64,000 nt of DNA from NCBI RefSeq assembly GCF_054482525.1, contig NZ_CM137006.1, one strand, 5' to 3'. The notes beneath the pieces were generated by a model. That model saw only the letters and a program-made list of their open reading frames with translations, searched no databases and was not told the DNA's origin. Positions 39,903 to 45,892 of this stretch are shown here, piece by piece. Positions within the stretch are counted from its first letter, which is position 1; every line of letters starts with the position of its first letter. Both the position numbers and the translations under genes were made by a program.

Positions 39903-40657
<755 letters not shown>

Positions 40658-40761
40658 ATCAGCATACTTGTCCTTAGCCTTCTGCAGTGACAGCTGGTAG
40701 TACAGCGTGCTTCTGGCCAGCCCTGCAGCCTTTAACAGGTCAGACTGGCAGTGTCCGCACC

Positions 40762-41292
40762 TCAGGCTCCGGATGACTTTCGTTTTTTCTCCAGCTCCTG
40801 GCGCTTTTTTTCCAGGAGATGCTCCTGCATGGCTTTCAGATATGCATTTTCTGCGCGAAGATAACGCAGCTCATTCTTCATCTCTTCCGGCGTCATGTTT
40901 GCCTCGTTTTCATGGGTATCATCAGAACGGGTCATGCTTTTCTCCTTCCTGCGCCTGATAAAGGCCTCATTACCAGATTTGCGGTAGCCTTTTATCCAGT
41001 TTTTAACCGTGTTGTGGCTGGGAATGTTAAACCGGGCAGCTACCCGGGGTAGAGACTCAGAATGCCCGAGAGCATAAAGAACCACGCAAAGTTTATCTTC
41101 AGGAGAATAGCTACGCTTGTGTCTGCAATCCAGTGCCCGAGGACCGTGAAGAAGAAAAAGATTAATCCAGTGTGAGAGGCTGGTGTGAGAAAGTTGAAAG
41201 AGTTTTGCCGTAGAAATGATGCCTGCATGACCAGCCAGGTAGTGATTTACAGCGGCAAGTTTTACTTCAAATGAATGTTTCATAAACTGCAC
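40762..41292 (-). CDS. IS3-family transposase OrfA (HTH plus leucine zipper)
   Basis: 176-aa ORF; ends over ggaaaaaaagcg (A7G) frameshift motif near 40805-40815. Confidence 0.8.
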   Translation of the reverse strand: MQFMKHSFEVKLAAVNHYLAGHAGIISTAKLFQLSHTSLSHWINLFLLHGPRALDCRHKRSYSPEDKLCVVLYALGHSESLPRVAARFNIPSHNTVKNWIKGYRKSGNEAFIRRRKEKSMTRSDDTHENEANMTPEEMKNELRYLRAENAYLKAMQEHLLEKKRQELEKKRKSSGA

Positions 41293-41334
41293 CTTCAGAT
41301 GTCAGATTATGTCCAACATTTGGGGTGCAGTTCA

Positions 41335-41440
41335 GTTTACGCCGCATCCGGCGGTTATGCGCTGATGCCTGATGCGGCGCGGGCGCGTCTTATCATGCCT
41401 GGAAGTCTGCGCCCGAATCGTAGGCCGCCTCCGCTATATT
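41335..41440. repeat. REP/BIME cluster, right part
   Basis: gtttacgccgcatccggcg..., gcctgatgcggcgc..., cgaatcgtaggccg: several REP-like units. Confidence 0.65.
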
Positions 41441-41456
41441 AACTGGCATTGGCAAA

Positions 41457-41819
41457 TTACTCGTCACTACCTTTATTCATGTTTTTTTGGTCTTCATCCG
41501 GATAATGTTTTTTTAGATATTCCAGGACGTTTTTATTGACCTTGTGTTGCGTATACACCCACCCTTTCCAGTAATCAGGCTGGTCCAGGTAAACTTCTGG
41601 CGGAATGGTGAAATCAGAAAGCGTTAACCATTCGGCTAACAGATCGGGGTTTCGTTTCTGGATTAACTGCAACAGCATAATCAGTGACATAGCTGAGGCA
41701 GGAGCCGTACTATCACCACTCAAATATTTCCACACTGTTGACCGGTTCGAACGAAAAAGGATCGGTAGCAATGCCCGGTCCAGATTCATTTCATTAAAAA
41801 TCTTCTCAAATTCATTCAT
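41457..41819 (-). CDS. hypothetical protein (120 aa), not in K-12 map
   Basis: ORF MNEFEKIFNEMNLDRALLPILFRSNRSTVWKYLSGDSTAPASAMSL...; AT-rich context; divergent from the adjacent outer-membrane protein gene. No function assigned. Confidence 0.5.
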   Translation of the reverse strand: MNEFEKIFNEMNLDRALLPILFRSNRSTVWKYLSGDSTAPASAMSLIMLLQLIQKRNPDLLAEWLTLSDFTIPPEVYLDQPDYWKGWVYTQHKVNKNVLEYLKKHYPDEDQKNMNKGSDE

Positions 41820-42167
41820 TTAAATTTTCCTGCCTGGCGTAAACCTCTTAAAAATTGAGATTTATCAAAGAAACGCATTTTAGCACACATCAGGAACCGC
41901 TTCACGTTTAGTCCAGAAACAGAATTTATTTCGCTTATCAAAACAAGTCTTTACTCTTTTTTACATTGAAAGAGCACAAAATGATTTTCTATTTTATTTA
42001 TATAAGAAACATTTTTTGTTTCTTATTGGTGGTGTTTACGCTTACACCAAACAAAAATGCGCTTTACATCACACAAATGGCGGCGTAGATTTCGATCAAA
42101 TTGCAACGCAGATTAATTCTTATAACAACGTTTTACGTTGCTTATAGAAACAAATATGTGACTTACT

Positions 42168-43601
42168 TTGAAAGAGAAAAAATGCATGAAAACTGTAAAG
42201 CTGTCTTTACTGGCTGTCGTTGTTGCTACCGCGGTAAGTCCATCTGCGTTTGCGGGTGATACTGTTGAGGCGGCAACGACAGAATTAACGGCAATCCAGC
42301 CAGGAATGTCGCAATCGGAAATTGATCAGAAAATTGGTCGATTTTTAGAAAGGACAGGGAATAGTGCAGCCGCACAAAATTATCTGATTGCGCATGATTA
42401 CCGGACAACGACACCTCAGGAAAATACAGCTGCTTCTCCCGTACAGCCCACCAATACGCTGAACCCGATAACCAATCAAGCGCAGACCGACCGCGACAAC
42501 GGGCAGGATACCGCCATTCAGGACGCACAACATGCCGCCAACTGGGCTTCAATGAAAGCTGATGACGCGCAGCACGCCATTATGGTGGCGCAGACGGATA
42601 TTGATGCCAATAAAGCCGCCATCGCCGACACCCGTAATGATGTCTCCGCAGTGCAGTCAGACGTCACCAACATAAAAGGCGATGTCGCACATGCCCAGTC
42701 AACGGCTGACCATGCCAACGCTAACGCCAACGCCGCTCTGATGAACGGCGTCAAACTTTCCGGTGCTGTGACAGAAAACAAAAATAATATCGAACAGAAC
42801 CGCAGCGATATTGCTGACCAGCAGCAACAACTCGACGAAACCCGGAAAACCGTTGCCGCCACCGGTGATGTACAGACTGCCGCCCGATATCAGAGCATGA
42901 TTGACGCCAGACAGACTGCTGCTGCCAATGCGCAACAGGAACAAGCGGACACCCAGCAGCAACAAATGGACGATCAGCAGAAACAAATCGACGCGACGCA
43001 AAAAACGGTTTCCGCACTTGGCGATGACCAGACCAACGCACATTATCAAGAGATGGTTAACGCCGAACTGAGAGCACAAAATGATGCGAATGCGCGTACT
43101 GCAGCAGAACAAAAACAAAAAATAGATACTCTGGCGACTAACCAGGCAACACAACAGCATATCGATAGTGTGCAGTACGGGGAACAAATTCAGCGTCTGG
43201 CGCAAGACTCAACACAAACGCATGAACAAATTGACAGCCTGACACAAGACGTAACCCAAACGCATCAGCAGTTAAGCAACACGCAAAAACGAGTAGCGGA
43301 TAATAGCCAGCAGATTACTACGCTCAATAACCATTTCAGTTCGCTGAAAAACGAAGTTGAGGACAACCGTAAAGAAGCCAATGCGGGAACTGCATCAGCC
43401 ATCGCTATCGCCTCACAACCACAGGTGAAAGCCGGTGACTTTATGATGATGTCAGCGGGAGCGGGAACCTTCAACGGTGAATCTGCGGTGTCTGTCGGAA
43501 CATCTTTTAATGCCGGAACGCATACCGTGATTAAAGCCGGTGTCTCTGCGGATACGCAATCTGATTTCGGCGCGGGTGTCGGCGTGGGATATTCTTTCTA
43601 A
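42168..43601 (+). CDS. putative secreted coiled-coil protein with YadA-like C-terminal membrane anchor (trimeric-autotransporter-like)
   Basis: Signal peptide (MKTVKLSLLAVVVATAVSPSAFA; start may be 42186), Gln/Ala-rich heptad-like central region, C-terminus ...AGTASAIAIASQPQV...GESAVSVGTSF...IKAGVS...GVGVGYSF resembling the YadA anchor (4 beta-strands ending in aromatic residue). Confidence 0.6.
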   Translation: MKEKKCMKTVKLSLLAVVVATAVSPSAFAGDTVEAATTELTAIQPGMSQSEIDQKIGRFLERTGNSAAAQNYLIAHDYRTTTPQENTAASPVQPTNTLNPITNQAQTDRDNGQDTAIQDAQHAANWASMKADDAQHAIMVAQTDIDANKAAIADTRNDVSAVQSDVTNIKGDVAHAQSTADHANANANAALMNGVKLSGAVTENKNNIEQNRSDIADQQQQLDETRKTVAATGDVQTAARYQSMIDARQTAAANAQQEQADTQQQQMDDQQKQIDATQKTVSALGDDQTNAHYQEMVNAELRAQNDANARTAAEQKQKIDTLATNQATQQHIDSVQYGEQIQRLAQDSTQTHEQIDSLTQDVTQTHQQLSNTQKRVADNSQQITTLNNHFSSLKNEVEDNRKEANAGTASAIAIASQPQVKAGDFMMMSAGAGTFNGESAVSVGTSFNAGTHTVIKAGVSADTQSDFGAGVGVGYSF

Positions 43602-43686
43602 TATTCCAATCCTCAATATAAATAAGAGCAAGGAAGCTTGCCGGGTTTCACCTCTTCATTAATTTGTACATTATTTAAGGTTAACA

Positions 43687-44109
43687 ATGATGAATAGCTC
43701 CATTAAATCGTTTTCCCTGCTGGCGGTTATATTACTGGCTGGCTGTAGTTCACCCACTTCCCGCATCGCAGATTGCCAGGCGCAGGGCGTCAGCCATGAC
43801 ACCTGTTATCTCGCAGAACAACAGCGTCAGACGGCTATTTTAAGTGCATCCGAGGCGCAGGCATTTAAAAATGCAGAAGCCGCACAACATGCCCAGGCCG
43901 CTAAAAAATCTATTTATAAAGGATTTGGCATGACCTTTAGAATGAGCAGTAAGAACTTTGCTTATCTCAATGATTCATTATGTGCAATTGATGAAGACAA
44001 TAAAGATGCCACTGTTTATCAGTCAGGTCTTTATAACGTCATTGTTTATCACCACACGGGAAAAGTCGCCTTAATGAAGGAAGGTCAGTTTGTGGGTTAT
44101 TTAAAATGA
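43687..44109 (+). CDS. hypothetical lipoprotein (140 aa)
   Basis: Signal peptide with lipobox LLAGC; several Cys; no recognised family. Confidence 0.55.
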   Translation: MMNSSIKSFSLLAVILLAGCSSPTSRIADCQAQGVSHDTCYLAEQQRQTAILSASEAQAFKNAEAAQHAQAAKKSIYKGFGMTFRMSSKNFAYLNDSLCAIDEDNKDATVYQSGLYNVIVYHHTGKVALMKEGQFVGYLK

Positions 44110-44309
44110 AGGAGCAAAGGAAAATCCCCCTGACGCATATTATGATTATCGGTGCGTTTATTTTTGCCTTCTTGCAAGTGGTGTTATTAGCCTCCCTGGT
44201 TCACGCTGTGAATGTTAACAACGAAATCCAGGAAGGCTTATTTCAATCGGGGCGCATAATGGTAGAAAGTTTGCAGCATATTCTTTCGGTGCAAACGGGG
44301 ATTAACTGA
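44106..44309 (+). CDS. hypothetical small membrane protein (67 aa)
   Basis: ATGA start/stop overlap with preceding lipoprotein gene; one predicted TM helix (IMIIGAFIFAFLQVVLLASLV). Confidence 0.45.
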   Translation: MKEQRKIPLTHIMIIGAFIFAFLQVVLLASLVHAVNVNNEIQEGLFQSGRIMVESLQHILSVQTGIN

Positions 44310-44312
44310 TTT

Positions 44313-44720
44313 TCACCCCGCCCGATGATGACAGCAGCCGGAGAGATTTTCGATAATCGGGCAGTCGGCGCTGTCATCACCAGGGCAGGCATTCGCCAGC
44401 GCCAGTAGCTGGTCGCGCATGGATTGCAGCTCCTCAATGTGCCGTTCGATCTCCGCTACCTTCTCCAGCGTGCGCCGTTTTACATCGGCGCTGTGACGCT
44501 GTGGGTCGTTAAACAGATTCACCAGTTCGCCGCTCTCTTCCAGGTTAAAGCCCACCTGGCGCGCCTGGCGCAGTAAGGTCAGTTCGTTGAGATGCTGCTG
44601 CGTGTAGGTTCGATAACCATTTTCGCTGCGCATCGGCGGCGTCACCAGCCCCTTCTCTTCATAGAAGCGAATGGCTTTGCTGGTCAGGCCGGTAATTTTT
44701 GCTACATCGCTAATGTTCAT
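44313..44720 (-). CDS. cueR: MerR-family copper-responsive regulator
   Basis: 135-aa [32 protein letters not shown]... with C-terminal metal-binding Cys pair (CPGDDSADC). Confidence 0.9.
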
Positions 44721-45892
44721 CGTTCGCGCAACGCCTCCTGTGCTTTATTAAAGGGTTTCAACAGATAATCCAGCACGCTTTTTTTGCCGGTGCGGATATC
44801 GACCGTCGCCACCATACCGGGGAATATCGGAAACTGCTGTTTATGTTTATTTTCCAGATGGTTGCTGAAAGTGCGAATGTACACCCGATAGTAATAAACA
44901 TCGCGCCGCACTTCATCCTGCACGGTGTCTGGTGATATCACCGCCACTTCTCCCGGCAGGCCGCCGTAGATGGAGTAATCGTAGGCGGTTATTTTCACCA
45001 GCGATTTTTGCCCCGGGTGGATAAACGCCACATCGCGCGGGGAGATTTTTGCCTCAATCAGCAGTTGCTCATCCAGCGGCACGATGGTCATCAGTTTACC
45101 ACCGGGGGCAATGACGCCGCCAACCGTGGTGACGTCAATGTCCTGAACAATGCCTCGCACCGGCGCGGTAAAGTTGAGCCTGGTGAGGGAGTCTTCCCGT
45201 CCACGGATCACCGAACGCTGGGTTTCTACTTCCGCATTGGCTTTCGCTAACTCTTCCCGCGCCTGTACGTAGTATTGCGTGCGCACGTCGCTGAGTTTGT
45301 TTTCCAGTTCATTGGCCTGGCGTTGCAGGCGCAGCACTTCAACGCTGCTCGCCGCCCCCTGTTTTACCAGCGGCTGGGTCATCGCCAGTTCGCGGTTGAC
45401 CAGGCTAATCCCCTGCGTCAGCCCGGTGGTGGCTTTGTTCAGCCCATCGCGGCGAGTGTTGTACAACGCCGTTTCCGACTCGATAAGTTCGGGGAATTTA
45501 TTCAGTTCGTCAGGGAAGACCAGCGGTTTATTACTCACTTCCGCCCGCAGCCGCGCCGAGGTTGCCAGCGCCGCGTACAGCCGCGACATTGCTTCCTGGA
45601 CGTCGGATTCCGTTTTGGTGCGGTTAAGCTGCGCCAGCGGCTGGCCCTGTTCAACAATATCGCCAACCTTGACGTCGAGATGATACAGAATTCCGCCTTC
45701 CAGCGACTGCACCACCTGTTCGCGCCCGGAAGGTTCTACCGTGCCGCTGCCGGTGGTGACTTCATCAAGCTGGAAGTACCACGCCCAGCCGAGAAAACAG
45801 AGCAGCATCACAGAGGTAACGCGTACCGCCAGCGCCGAACGCGGCAGGCGGGGTTCAGTCAGGCCACGGTTGTATTGCAGTTGTCCGTTCAT
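44717..45892 (-). CDS. type I secretion membrane-fusion protein (HlyD family)
   Basis: 391-aa ORF with N-terminal TM, long coiled-coil and C-terminal beta domain typical of HlyD/LapC; 4-bp overlaps with ABC gene upstream and cueR downstream. Confidence 0.85.

What the first reader, a model, noticed from the sequence alone, without database searches (positions are those of the whole stretch)
41820..42185. Very AT-rich divergent control region between the 120-aa hypothetical gene and the YadA-like gene
About 365 bp with long A/T tracts (e.g. ttttctattttatttatataagaaacattttttgtttcttatt). Such curved AT-rich DNA is typical of H-NS-bound promoters of horizontally acquired adhesin genes; the divergently encoded 120-aa protein could be a local regulator.
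Basis: inference. Interest (0 to 1): 0.3.

Follow-up and report, generated by a model that had tools for sequence, protein, structure and literature searches.

The report
Control region of OI-29 adhesin operon
The AT-rich 366-bp gap is the control region of a small horizontally acquired E. coli island (O-island 29): it holds two back-to-back promoters and a conserved array of AGAAAC boxes, and the neighbouring 120-aa gene encodes a previously unrecognised helix-turn-helix protein that probably binds them.

Summary
Window 41820-42185 is 366 bp at 31.7% GC, against 54.1% for the window, which puts it in the lowest 0.1% of 366-bp windows.

The locus is the z0640-z0639 ("gmrA") spacer of E. coli O-island 29, present in 1413 of 5426 complete E. 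coli genomes.

It is not generic AT-rich filler. In 15 loci from several genera the spacer keeps its length (about 352-379 bp). The distant ones are only 50-57% identical overall, yet the same short blocks survive:
- an extended -10 for the 120-aa gene;
- a -35/-10 pair for the YadA-like gene;
- a TTGAx-N4-xTCAA palindrome;
- a TTTAC-N5-TTTAC repeat;
- at least 8 AGAAAC/GTTTCT boxes (43 observed, 3.1 expected), often 22/44/46 bp apart and lying on or just downstream of both predicted start sites.

"Local regulator" is therefore supported in silico. H-NS binding is plausible from AT content and published thermo/osmo-regulation only; curvature and H-NS motif tests were unremarkable.

This is a new member of a known kind, of moderate interest.

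Side note: the published "transcription factor GmrA" is, by sequence, this signal-peptide/YadA-anchor protein.

The parts
41457..41819 (-). z0640-type gene (120 aa): an uncharacterised small protein with a predicted XRE/Cro-C1-type helix-turn-helix N-terminal domain. Candidate local regulator.
41820..42185 (.). AT-rich divergent control region (366 bp, 31.7% GC). Its length is conserved at about 352-379 bp in 15 loci.
41855..41868 (.). Palindrome TTGAG-ATTT-ATCAA, a 9/10 match to the FNR-type consensus TTGAT-N4-ATCAA. It abuts box 1 and lies just downstream of the predicted z0640 start site. It could be an FNR site or the regulator's own operator.
   Evidence: It is conserved in most loci (10/10 in L014, 9/10 in L018, L004-6, L007, L016), by inspection of the alignment and sequences.
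41869..41874 (+). AGAAAC box 1, overlapping the predicted +1 of the z0640 promoter.
   Evidence: GAAAC is invariant in 12 of 13 aligned spacers; the A before it varies in 2. Hexamer enrichment z=23.6.
41877..41885 (-). Predicted extended -10 promoter of the z0640-type gene (TGCTAAAAT on the minus strand). The -35 is poor.
   Evidence: Read from the sequence. The TGnTAnnAT pattern is kept in nearly all of the 13 spacers and in L018 and L022. The start site itself is inferred.
41915..41920 (+). AGAAAC box 2. With 41928-41933 (ATTTCG) it forms an imperfect AGAAAC-N7-GTTTCT unit.
41940..41964 (.). Conserved block AAAACAAG...TTTAC-N5-TTTAC. The repeat at 41950-41964 is an exact match, on the minus strand, to the CpxR consensus GTAAA-N5-GTAAA.
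   Evidence: Consensus taken from PMC9603713. Binding not tested.
42002..42026 (.). Perfect palindrome ATAAGAAACA-TTTTT-TGTTTCTTAT (boxes 3 and 4), lying between the two promoters.
   Evidence: I6; 0 mismatches. Present in Escherichia, in Symbiopectobacterium and partly in L014 and L005.
42063..42091 (+). Predicted sigma-70 promoter of the YadA-like operon: -35 TTTACA, 17-bp spacer, -10 TAGATT.
   Evidence: Promoter scan. GCTTTAC and GGCGTA..TT are invariant across 13 spacers with no indels between them. Also present in L018. The start site near 42098 is inferred.
42102..42151 (.). Array of boxes in the DNA that encodes the 5'UTR: tGCAAC (42102-07, AGAAAC in other genera), AACAAC (42124-29, degenerate), GTTGCT-TAT-AGAAAC (42137-51). 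The boxes are about 22 bp apart. The array includes a 33-bp imperfect palindrome at 42117-42149.
   Evidence: I5
42163..42185 (+). Conserved translation-initiation block (TTAyTTTgAAAGAGAAA..), with a weak GAGA-type Shine-Dalgarno.
42186..43601 (+). YadA-like trimeric autotransporter gene (471 aa). Orthologue of z0639 'gmrA' / ECs0548 'Saa-like'.
   Evidence: Signal peptide seen by inspection. YadA_anchor 45.2 bits against a cutoff of 22.7. Primer mapping. Sakai annotation.
43687..44309 (+). Co-conserved downstream genes: a 140-aa lipoprotein (z0638) and an overlapping 67-aa membrane ORF.

Best explanation
The spacer is a compact, conserved divergent control region of the OI-29 adhesin module.

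Two promoters point outward about 200 bp apart. The 120-aa gene has an extended -10 (TGCTAAAAT, 41885->41877). The YadA-like operon has a TTTACA-17-TAGATT promoter (42063-42091).

An array of AGAAAC half-sites lies over and between the promoters. Most are the strong half of an imperfect 15-bp palindrome, rTTTmT-N3-AGAAAC. One is a perfect AGAAAC-N7-GTTTCT palindrome. The boxes are phased at about 22/44/46 bp.

The proposed mechanism is that the 120-aa XRE-type HTH protein binds these boxes as a dimer or oligomer. One box sits on its own predicted +1, and three or four sit at about +5 to +55 of the adhesin operon. The most likely effect is therefore autorepression plus gating (repression) of the adhesin operon.

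The very AT-rich DNA would in addition be a substrate for H-NS-type silencing. Host factors (an FNR-like palindrome, a CpxR-like repeat) may supply environmental input.

Shown here: composition, conservation, motif enrichment and phasing, synteny, HTH fold. Inferred: start sites, who binds what, and the sign of regulation.
For: Composition.

Identity of the locus.

Conserved module and spacer length in 15 loci at different chromosomal sites. The same holds for 45-46%-identical proteins.

Footprint: distant spacers are only 50-57% identical (chance is 28%), yet they keep the promoter hexamers and the boxes invariant.

AGAAAC/GTTTCT: 43 observed versus 3.1 expected in 10 spacers, z=23.6, the top hexamer. 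Commonest box spacings are 46, 44 and 22 bp. The left half is T-rich with C at -6, consistent with a degenerate palindrome. Four of five window-wide matches to GTTTCT-N3-AGAAAC fall inside this spacer.

Palindromes confirmed by tool.

Promoter scan.

HTH fold. Convergent weak HTH profile hits.

No conserved RNA structure in the leader, which favours DNA-level recognition.

One relative with an altered recognition helix (L021) lacks AGAAAC and instead has CCAATGAAGA twice, 22 bp apart.

Literature: z0639 transcript is highest at 37 C, neutral pH and low osmolarity, and the authors state its regulation is unknown. Deleting z0640 does not copy the z0639 deletion phenotype, which argues against an essential activator. 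H-NS represses other E. coli autotransporter genes.
Against: No binding, start-site or expression data for this spacer exist, and none could be generated here.

The boxes are mostly isolated direct repeats 22 bp apart, not canonical paired palindromes. In the window strain three of the eight are degenerate.

Conserved host regulators present in all these genera could explain the same conservation.

The HTH assignment rests on a predicted structure. Sequence profiles stay below threshold, and a shallow-alignment model was poor (pLDDT 57).

The footprint sequences are phylogenetically related, so the counts are not independent.

The H-NS motif and curvature tests gave nothing beyond AT content.

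The covariation hint is a single short contig.
Confidence: 0.55

Rival explanations
1. Generic xenogeneic-silencing target. The spacer is just AT-rich promoter DNA coated by H-NS/StpA, and temperature and osmolarity act through H-NS. The 120-aa protein plays no role, or only a minor anti-silencing one.
For: GC of 31.7% inside a horizontally acquired island. Published thermo- and osmo-dependence of the z0639 transcript. H-NS represses other E. coli autotransporter genes. One predicted bend upstream of the adhesin promoter.
Against: H-NS binding needs neither a fixed spacer length nor invariant hexamers. The 23-sigma enrichment and the phasing of AGAAAC are left unexplained, as is the strict co-occurrence with an HTH gene. 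The H-NS 10-mer motif is at chance. Mean curvature is not above shuffles. This rival is compatible with the best explanation as an added layer, but not as the whole story.
Confidence: 0.2
2. [not shown]
For: Exact CpxR-consensus match at 41950-41964, one of two in 64 kb. A 9/10 FNR-type palindrome conserved across genera. Direct-repeat phasing on one helical face. Published osmolarity and pH dependence. GAAAC-containing half-sites resemble OmpR sites (from memory, not tested).
Against: Response regulators normally bind adjacent repeats 10-11 bp apart, not 22. AGAAAC is not enriched elsewhere in the window: 28 copies in 64 kb is about chance, and the densest cluster is this spacer. The boxes persist wherever the HTH gene persists, including modules at unrelated chromosomal sites. 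They are absent where the recognition helix differs.
Confidence: 0.15
3. [not shown]
For: Local regulators of H-NS-silenced islands are commonly anti-silencers (general knowledge). Boxes 2-4 lie upstream of the adhesin promoter, at about -80 to -185.
Against: Boxes also cover +1 of its own promoter and +5 to +55 of the adhesin leader, which are typical repressor positions. Deleting z0640 did not phenocopy deleting z0639 in the published motility assays. That readout is itself indirect.
Confidence: 0.1

Closest known systems
H-NS-repressed promoters of E. coli autotransporter adhesins (upaG/ehaG, upaB/upaC)
   Same: AT-rich upstream region of a horizontally variable surface-adhesin gene. Expression depends on temperature and osmolarity.
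   Different: H-NS binding has not been shown for this locus. This spacer has a fixed length, a dedicated divergent HTH gene and a phased array of a specific hexamer. None of these is a described feature of those promoters, to my knowledge.
Lambdoid repressor/Cro and restriction-modification controller (C) protein operator arrays; Aca2-type autoregulators
   Same: A small XRE-type HTH protein encoded next to the DNA it controls. Short imperfect palindromic operators spaced about two helical turns apart and overlapping promoters. The best structural matches are Aca2, Aca1, HigA2, MqsA, C-proteins and lambda cI.
   Different: No sequence-level membership: all profile hits are below threshold. 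There is an extra C-terminal helical domain of about 50 residues with no matched fold. The target is an adhesin operon, not a phage, R-M, TA or anti-CRISPR module. At least 8 boxes spread over 300 bp is more than the 2-3 operators usual in those systems.
OI-29 / 'gmrA' locus of EHEC O157:H7 (Yang et al. 2018, PMC5826968)
   Same: It is the same locus. The spacer is 92.6% identical to O157:H7, with the same three genes.
   Different: That paper treats z0639 as a transcription factor and z0640 as a gene of unknown function. It does not analyse the spacer. The allele here encodes a longer stalk (471 versus 338 aa), and the window strain has an IS3 element next to the module.
Saa / Eib / YadA-type short coiled-coil trimeric autotransporters
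   Same: Signal peptide, long coiled-coil-like stalk and a C-terminal YadA_anchor. Listed as 'Saa-like' in Sakai.
   Different: No recognisable head domain by Pfam. It is followed by a dedicated lipoprotein and a small membrane ORF, and preceded by the HTH gene.

Membership tests
H-NS (xenogeneic silencer) target promoter | AT content well above the genome average, within horizontally acquired DNA | tested here: met
   31.7% GC versus 54.1%. The island is absent from K-12 and present in 26% of complete E. coli genomes.
H-NS (xenogeneic silencer) target promoter | High-affinity nucleation motif (tCGATAAATT-like) or intrinsic curvature above expectation | tested here: not met
   Two 8/10 motif matches versus 1.09 expected in composition-matched shuffles; 30% of shuffles reach 2 or more. 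Mean curvature is not above shuffles and there is one modest peak (wedge parameters recalled from memory).
H-NS (xenogeneic silencer) target promoter | H-NS occupancy in vivo and derepression in an hns mutant | not testable with these tools
   No ChIP or hns-mutant data for z0639/z0640 found in the searched literature.
XRE / Cro-C1-type HTH transcription regulator (for the 120-aa protein) | Significant match to an HTH_3 / HTH_XRE-type sequence profile | tested here: not met
   Only sub-threshold hits: MqsA HTH E=0.081; HTH_3, HTH_26 and YdaS at E about 0.02-0.03 in a distant relative. No PDB sequence relatives.
XRE / Cro-C1-type HTH transcription regulator (for the 120-aa protein) | Lambda-repressor-like helical fold with a helix-turn-helix | tested here: met
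   [not shown]
XRE / Cro-C1-type HTH transcription regulator (for the 120-aa protein) | Sequence-specific DNA binding to (pseudo)palindromic operators near its own promoter | not testable with these tools
   Candidate operators exist but binding has not been measured.
Divergent sigma-70 promoter pair | -35/-10 or extended -10 elements on each strand, conserved in orthologous spacers | tested here: met
   Plus strand: TTTACA-17-TAGATT, invariant core in 13 spacers. Minus strand: TGnTAAAAT conserved.
Divergent sigma-70 promoter pair | Mapped transcription start sites | not testable with these tools
   No start-site data were available; the +1 positions are inferred.
Trimeric autotransporter adhesin (type Vc) for the downstream gene | N-terminal Sec signal peptide and C-terminal YadA_anchor beta-barrel domain | tested here: met
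   The N-terminus MKTVKLSLLAVVVATAVSPSAFA|GD and its equivalents occur in all 15 loci. YadA_anchor scores 45.2 bits here and 43.7-51.5 bits in the three orthologues scanned, against a cutoff of 22.7.
cis-regulatory RNA in the leader (riboswitch / RNA thermometer) | Rfam match or conserved secondary structure in the 5'UTR | tested here: not met
   No Rfam hit in the spacer at E<=1. RNAalifold gives no consensus structure. Single-sequence z-scores range from +0.4 to -1.9.
Dam/Lrp-type phase-variation switch | Two conserved GATC sites in the regulatory region | tested here: not met
   There is a single GATC at 42094. It is lost in O157:H7, where the sequence reads GATT.

The most novel reading that the evidence does not exclude
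Probability: 0.3. Interest if true: 0.55.

Novelty: new member of a known kind. Interest (0 to 1): 0.4.

Why it matters
OI-29 is carried by about a quarter of E. coli genomes, including O157:H7, O55:H7, NMEC and APEC lineages. Its published description says how z0639 is regulated is unknown.

This analysis supplies a concrete, testable map of the control region: two promoters, about 8 AGAAAC boxes, an FNR-like site and a CpxR-like site. It also gives the 'hypothetical' z0640 gene a likely function as the local HTH regulator.

It further shows that the gene published as the cytoplasmic activator GmrA has the sequence hallmarks of an outer-membrane trimeric autotransporter. That calls for re-examining the assignment.

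In kind, though, this is an ordinary arrangement: a local HTH regulator plus an AT-rich adhesin promoter.

Tried and rejected
- **Rfam scan** of 41300-44400 at E<=1: nothing in the spacer. The only nearby hit is a sub-threshold REP-like naRNA4 match at 41340-41399.
- **RNA thermometer or riboswitch** in the predicted leader: no conserved structure.
- **Dam phase variation:** one GATC, not conserved.
- **Small ORFs** in the spacer (41 aa minus strand; 40 and 43 aa plus strand): they lie in stretches that are unconserved and carry indels between genera, so they were rejected.
- **H-NS 10-mer motif:** at chance.
- **Curvature:** not above composition-matched shuffles apart from one peak.
- **Second FNR-like site** at 42086-42099: it is mostly the -10 hexamer and is not conserved outside Escherichia.
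- **PDB sequence search** with the family profile: only noise.
- **First AF2 run** with 13 close sequences: pLDDT 57, unusable. It was rescued by adding distant relatives from the 1.84-billion-protein HMM search.
- **Genome-contig scan:** only 4 species.
- **afdb50 fold library:** unavailable.
- **Totsika et al. 2012:** not held, so a citing paper was used instead.
- **A 2772-aa protein (P0028)** matching residues 56-105 eleven times: a YDG/MBG-repeat T9SS protein, probably a low-complexity or repeat coincidence. Not pursued.

Full report
**1. The observation**

The 120-aa ORF runs 41457-41819 on the minus strand. The YadA-like ORF has its conserved ATG at 42186, followed by a signal peptide. 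The 366 bp between them are 31.7% GC, against 54.1% for the window. That is the lowest 0.11% of all 366-bp windows and one of four segments below 0.36 GC. The quoted A/T-rich string is present and contains a perfect 25-bp palindrome (42002-42026).

**2. What the locus is**

The stretch 41400-44350 is 100% identical to E. coli PCN033. The window strain additionally has an IS3-family element (39935-41292) between ybbJ and the 120-aa gene.

The gene cluster lies between ybbJ and cueR and is O-island 29 of EHEC O157:H7. The homology arms of the published deletion primers map as follows (PMC5826968 supplement):
- z0640 is the 120-aa gene;
- z0639 ('gmrA') is the YadA-like gene;
- z0638 is the downstream lipoprotein gene.

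Sakai ECs0548 is listed as a 'Saa-like' adhesin absent from K-12 (PMC2323221). The spacer occurs once per genome in 1413 of 5426 complete E. coli genomes, at 85-100% identity (92.6% to O157:H7).

The paper reports that the z0639 transcript is highest at 37 C, pH 7 and physiological osmolarity. It states that the mechanism regulating it remains to be established. The spacer itself has not been analysed in any paper I could find.

**3. A conserved module**

Homologues of the 120-aa protein are rare: 21 clusters in the word-indexed search and 23 cluster representatives among 1.84 billion proteins.

I fetched contexts in Escherichia, Pseudocitrobacter, Symbiopectobacterium and several metagenomic Enterobacterales. 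In every context where the neighbour is readable, the small gene is divergent from a gene encoding a signal peptide plus YadA_anchor. That gene is usually followed by a lipoprotein and a small membrane ORF. The module sits at different junctions: ybbJ/cueR, qmcA/fetA, qmcA/cnoX, next to nrdAB, and next to a TA system.

The spacer length is nearly constant, at 352-379 bp in 15 loci. Relatives only 45-46% identical keep the same arrangement, with spacers of 359 and 408 bp at 30-38% GC.

**4. Phylogenetic footprint**

I aligned 13 spacers. The distant ones are 50-57% identical to the window, against a chance level of 28%. Short blocks are invariant or nearly so:

- (i) TTGAG-ATTT-ATCAA then AGAAAC then g-ATTTTAgCAC (41855-41887). 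On the minus strand the last part reads TGnTAAAAT, an extended -10 for the 120-aa gene. This places its +1 at about 41870, inside box 1 (inference).
- (ii) AGAAAC at 41915.
- (iii) AAAACAAG ... TTTAC-N5-yTkAC (41940-41964).
- (iv) The AAGAAAC-N7-GTTTCTT palindrome (42004-42024).
- (v) GCTTTACAtCACA-N8-GGCGTAgATT, that is -35 TTTACA, 17 bp, -10 TAGATT (42063-42091). The consensus scan also found this. No indels occur between the hexamers in any sequence. The +1 is inferred near 42098.
- (vi) Three or four GAAAC/GTTTC boxes in the leader DNA, about 22 bp apart.
- (vii) A conserved ribosome-binding block.

**5. The AGAAAC array**

In 10 spacers, AGAAAC/GTTTCT occurs 43 times against 3.1 expected (z=23.6). 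It is by far the most enriched hexamer (the shuffles were approximately dinucleotide-preserving).

In the whole 64-kb window the hexamer is at chance (28 copies), and its densest cluster is this spacer.

The commonest box-to-box distances are 46, 44 and 22 bp, which places boxes on the same helical face. The flank upstream of each box is T-rich with C at -6. This fits an imperfect 15-bp palindrome, rTTTmT-N3-AGAAAC. Four of the five window-wide matches to GTTTCT-N3-AGAAAC lie in the spacer.

In the window strain five boxes are exact and three are degenerate (GCAAC, AACAAC, GTTGCT). O157:H7 keeps GTTTCT-TAT-AGAAAC perfect.

**6. The 120-aa protein**

It has no Pfam or NCBIfam family. Weak hits all fall on residues 6-63 or the equivalent region: MqsA HTH, HTH_3, HTH_26, YdaS, Xre-like-HTH.

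The motif L-x4-R-x-NRST-x2-KYL fits helix 2, turn and recognition helix. R26 is invariant. The C-terminal 50 or so residues are helical with no fold match and could mediate oligomerisation (inference).

**7. Mechanism proposed**

The published finding that deleting z0640 does not mimic deleting z0639 argues against an essential activator, though that readout is indirect.

One relative with an altered recognition helix (PRATLWKY) has no AGAAAC. It has CCAATGAAGA twice, 22 bp apart. This is a single, weak covariation hint.

The absence of any conserved RNA structure or Rfam hit in the leader favours DNA-level recognition.

**8. H-NS and host factors**

H-NS represses other E. coli autotransporter genes (PMC3966885). 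The reported thermo- and osmo-dependence is compatible with H-NS silencing.

The only sequence evidence here, however, is AT content. The H-NS 10-mer motif is at chance. Predicted curvature shows one modest peak at 41967, and its mean is not above shuffles (parameters recalled from memory).

Two host-factor look-alikes are conserved:
- a 9/10 FNR-type palindrome at 41855-41868, which could equally be the HTH protein's own operator;
- an exact CpxR-consensus repeat at 41950-41964.

These are leads, not findings.

**9. Comparison and novelty**

Functionally this resembles small XRE-type autoregulators with operator arrays (lambdoid repressors, C-proteins, Aca2), combined with an H-NS-prone adhesin promoter.

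Membership of the XRE family is supported by predicted fold but not by sequence profile. Membership of the 'H-NS target' class is untested.

The arrangement is a new member of a known kind. The regulator family and its box array are undescribed, but the logic is familiar.

**10. Verdict**

The regulator idea is strengthened, the H-NS idea remains open, and the 'curved DNA' claim is weak.

Interest is 0.4. It is raised somewhat by the clear, testable cis-map and by the conflict noted below.

Noticed in passing
window 42186-43601; L002 3867-4883 (O157:H7 z0639): The gene published as the fliA-binding transcriptional activator 'GmrA' (PMC5826968) is this YadA-like gene, as the primer arms show. 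The O157 protein has a Sec-type signal peptide (MKTVNVALLALIISATSSPVVLA|GD) and a YadA_anchor domain (45 bits, cutoff 22.7). It has no DNA-binding Pfam or NCBIfam domain. The only other hits are sub-threshold coiled-coil look-alikes such as SMC, Rad50, DndD and MukB. These sequence features predict an outer-membrane adhesin, so the published role deserves re-examination.
   Followed up: partly
window 42186 vs 42306: RefSeq/PGAP starts the YadA-like CDS of PCN033 at the equivalent of 42306 (431 aa, no signal peptide). In O157:H7 it starts at the equivalent of 42186. The upstream ATG, with its signal peptide, is conserved in all 15 loci, so the PCN033 start is probably mis-called.
   Followed up: yes
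window 39935-41292 and 41340-41399: An IS3-family element (orfA 40762-41292, orfB 39935-40657) lies between ybbJ and the 120-aa gene. It is absent from the otherwise identical PCN033 locus. A REP-like element follows it (sub-threshold naRNA4 hit, 27 bits). The IS does not touch the control region.
   Followed up: partly
window 43687-44309: A 140-aa lipoprotein (z0638) and an overlapping 67-aa membrane ORF follow the adhesin gene in most loci. This recalls lipoprotein helpers of trimeric autotransporters such as SadB (from memory). Neither has a family assignment.
   Followed up: no
window 44717-64000: On the other side of cueR lie a HlyD-type adaptor, a type I secretion ABC transporter and a giant GC-rich (about 0.6) 'BapA-related adhesin SiiEA' gene. 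The adaptor and the adhesin gene are annotated as frameshifted in PCN033. cueR is therefore flanked by two different adhesin islands.
   Followed up: no
L021 (SRR22022235 contig), spacer upstream of P0025: A 41%-identical relative with an altered recognition helix has no AGAAAC boxes. It has CCAATGAAGA twice, exactly 22 bp apart, plus a third CCAATG. This may be box/helix covariation. The contig is too short to identify the neighbouring gene.
   Followed up: partly
P0028 (2772 aa, metagenomic): A YDG/MBG-repeat protein with a T9SS CHU_C signal matches residues 56-105 of the small-protein profile in 11 stretches (E=3.6e-12). This is unexplained. It may be a shared short helical repeat or a compositional artefact.
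   Followed up: no
L007 (Symbiopectobacterium) 3520-4621: Here the partner of the small gene is split into ORFs of 174, 64 and 115 aa with no YadA_anchor hit. It is probably a decaying adhesin gene in a symbiont genome. The spacer still keeps the boxes and promoters.
   Followed up: partly
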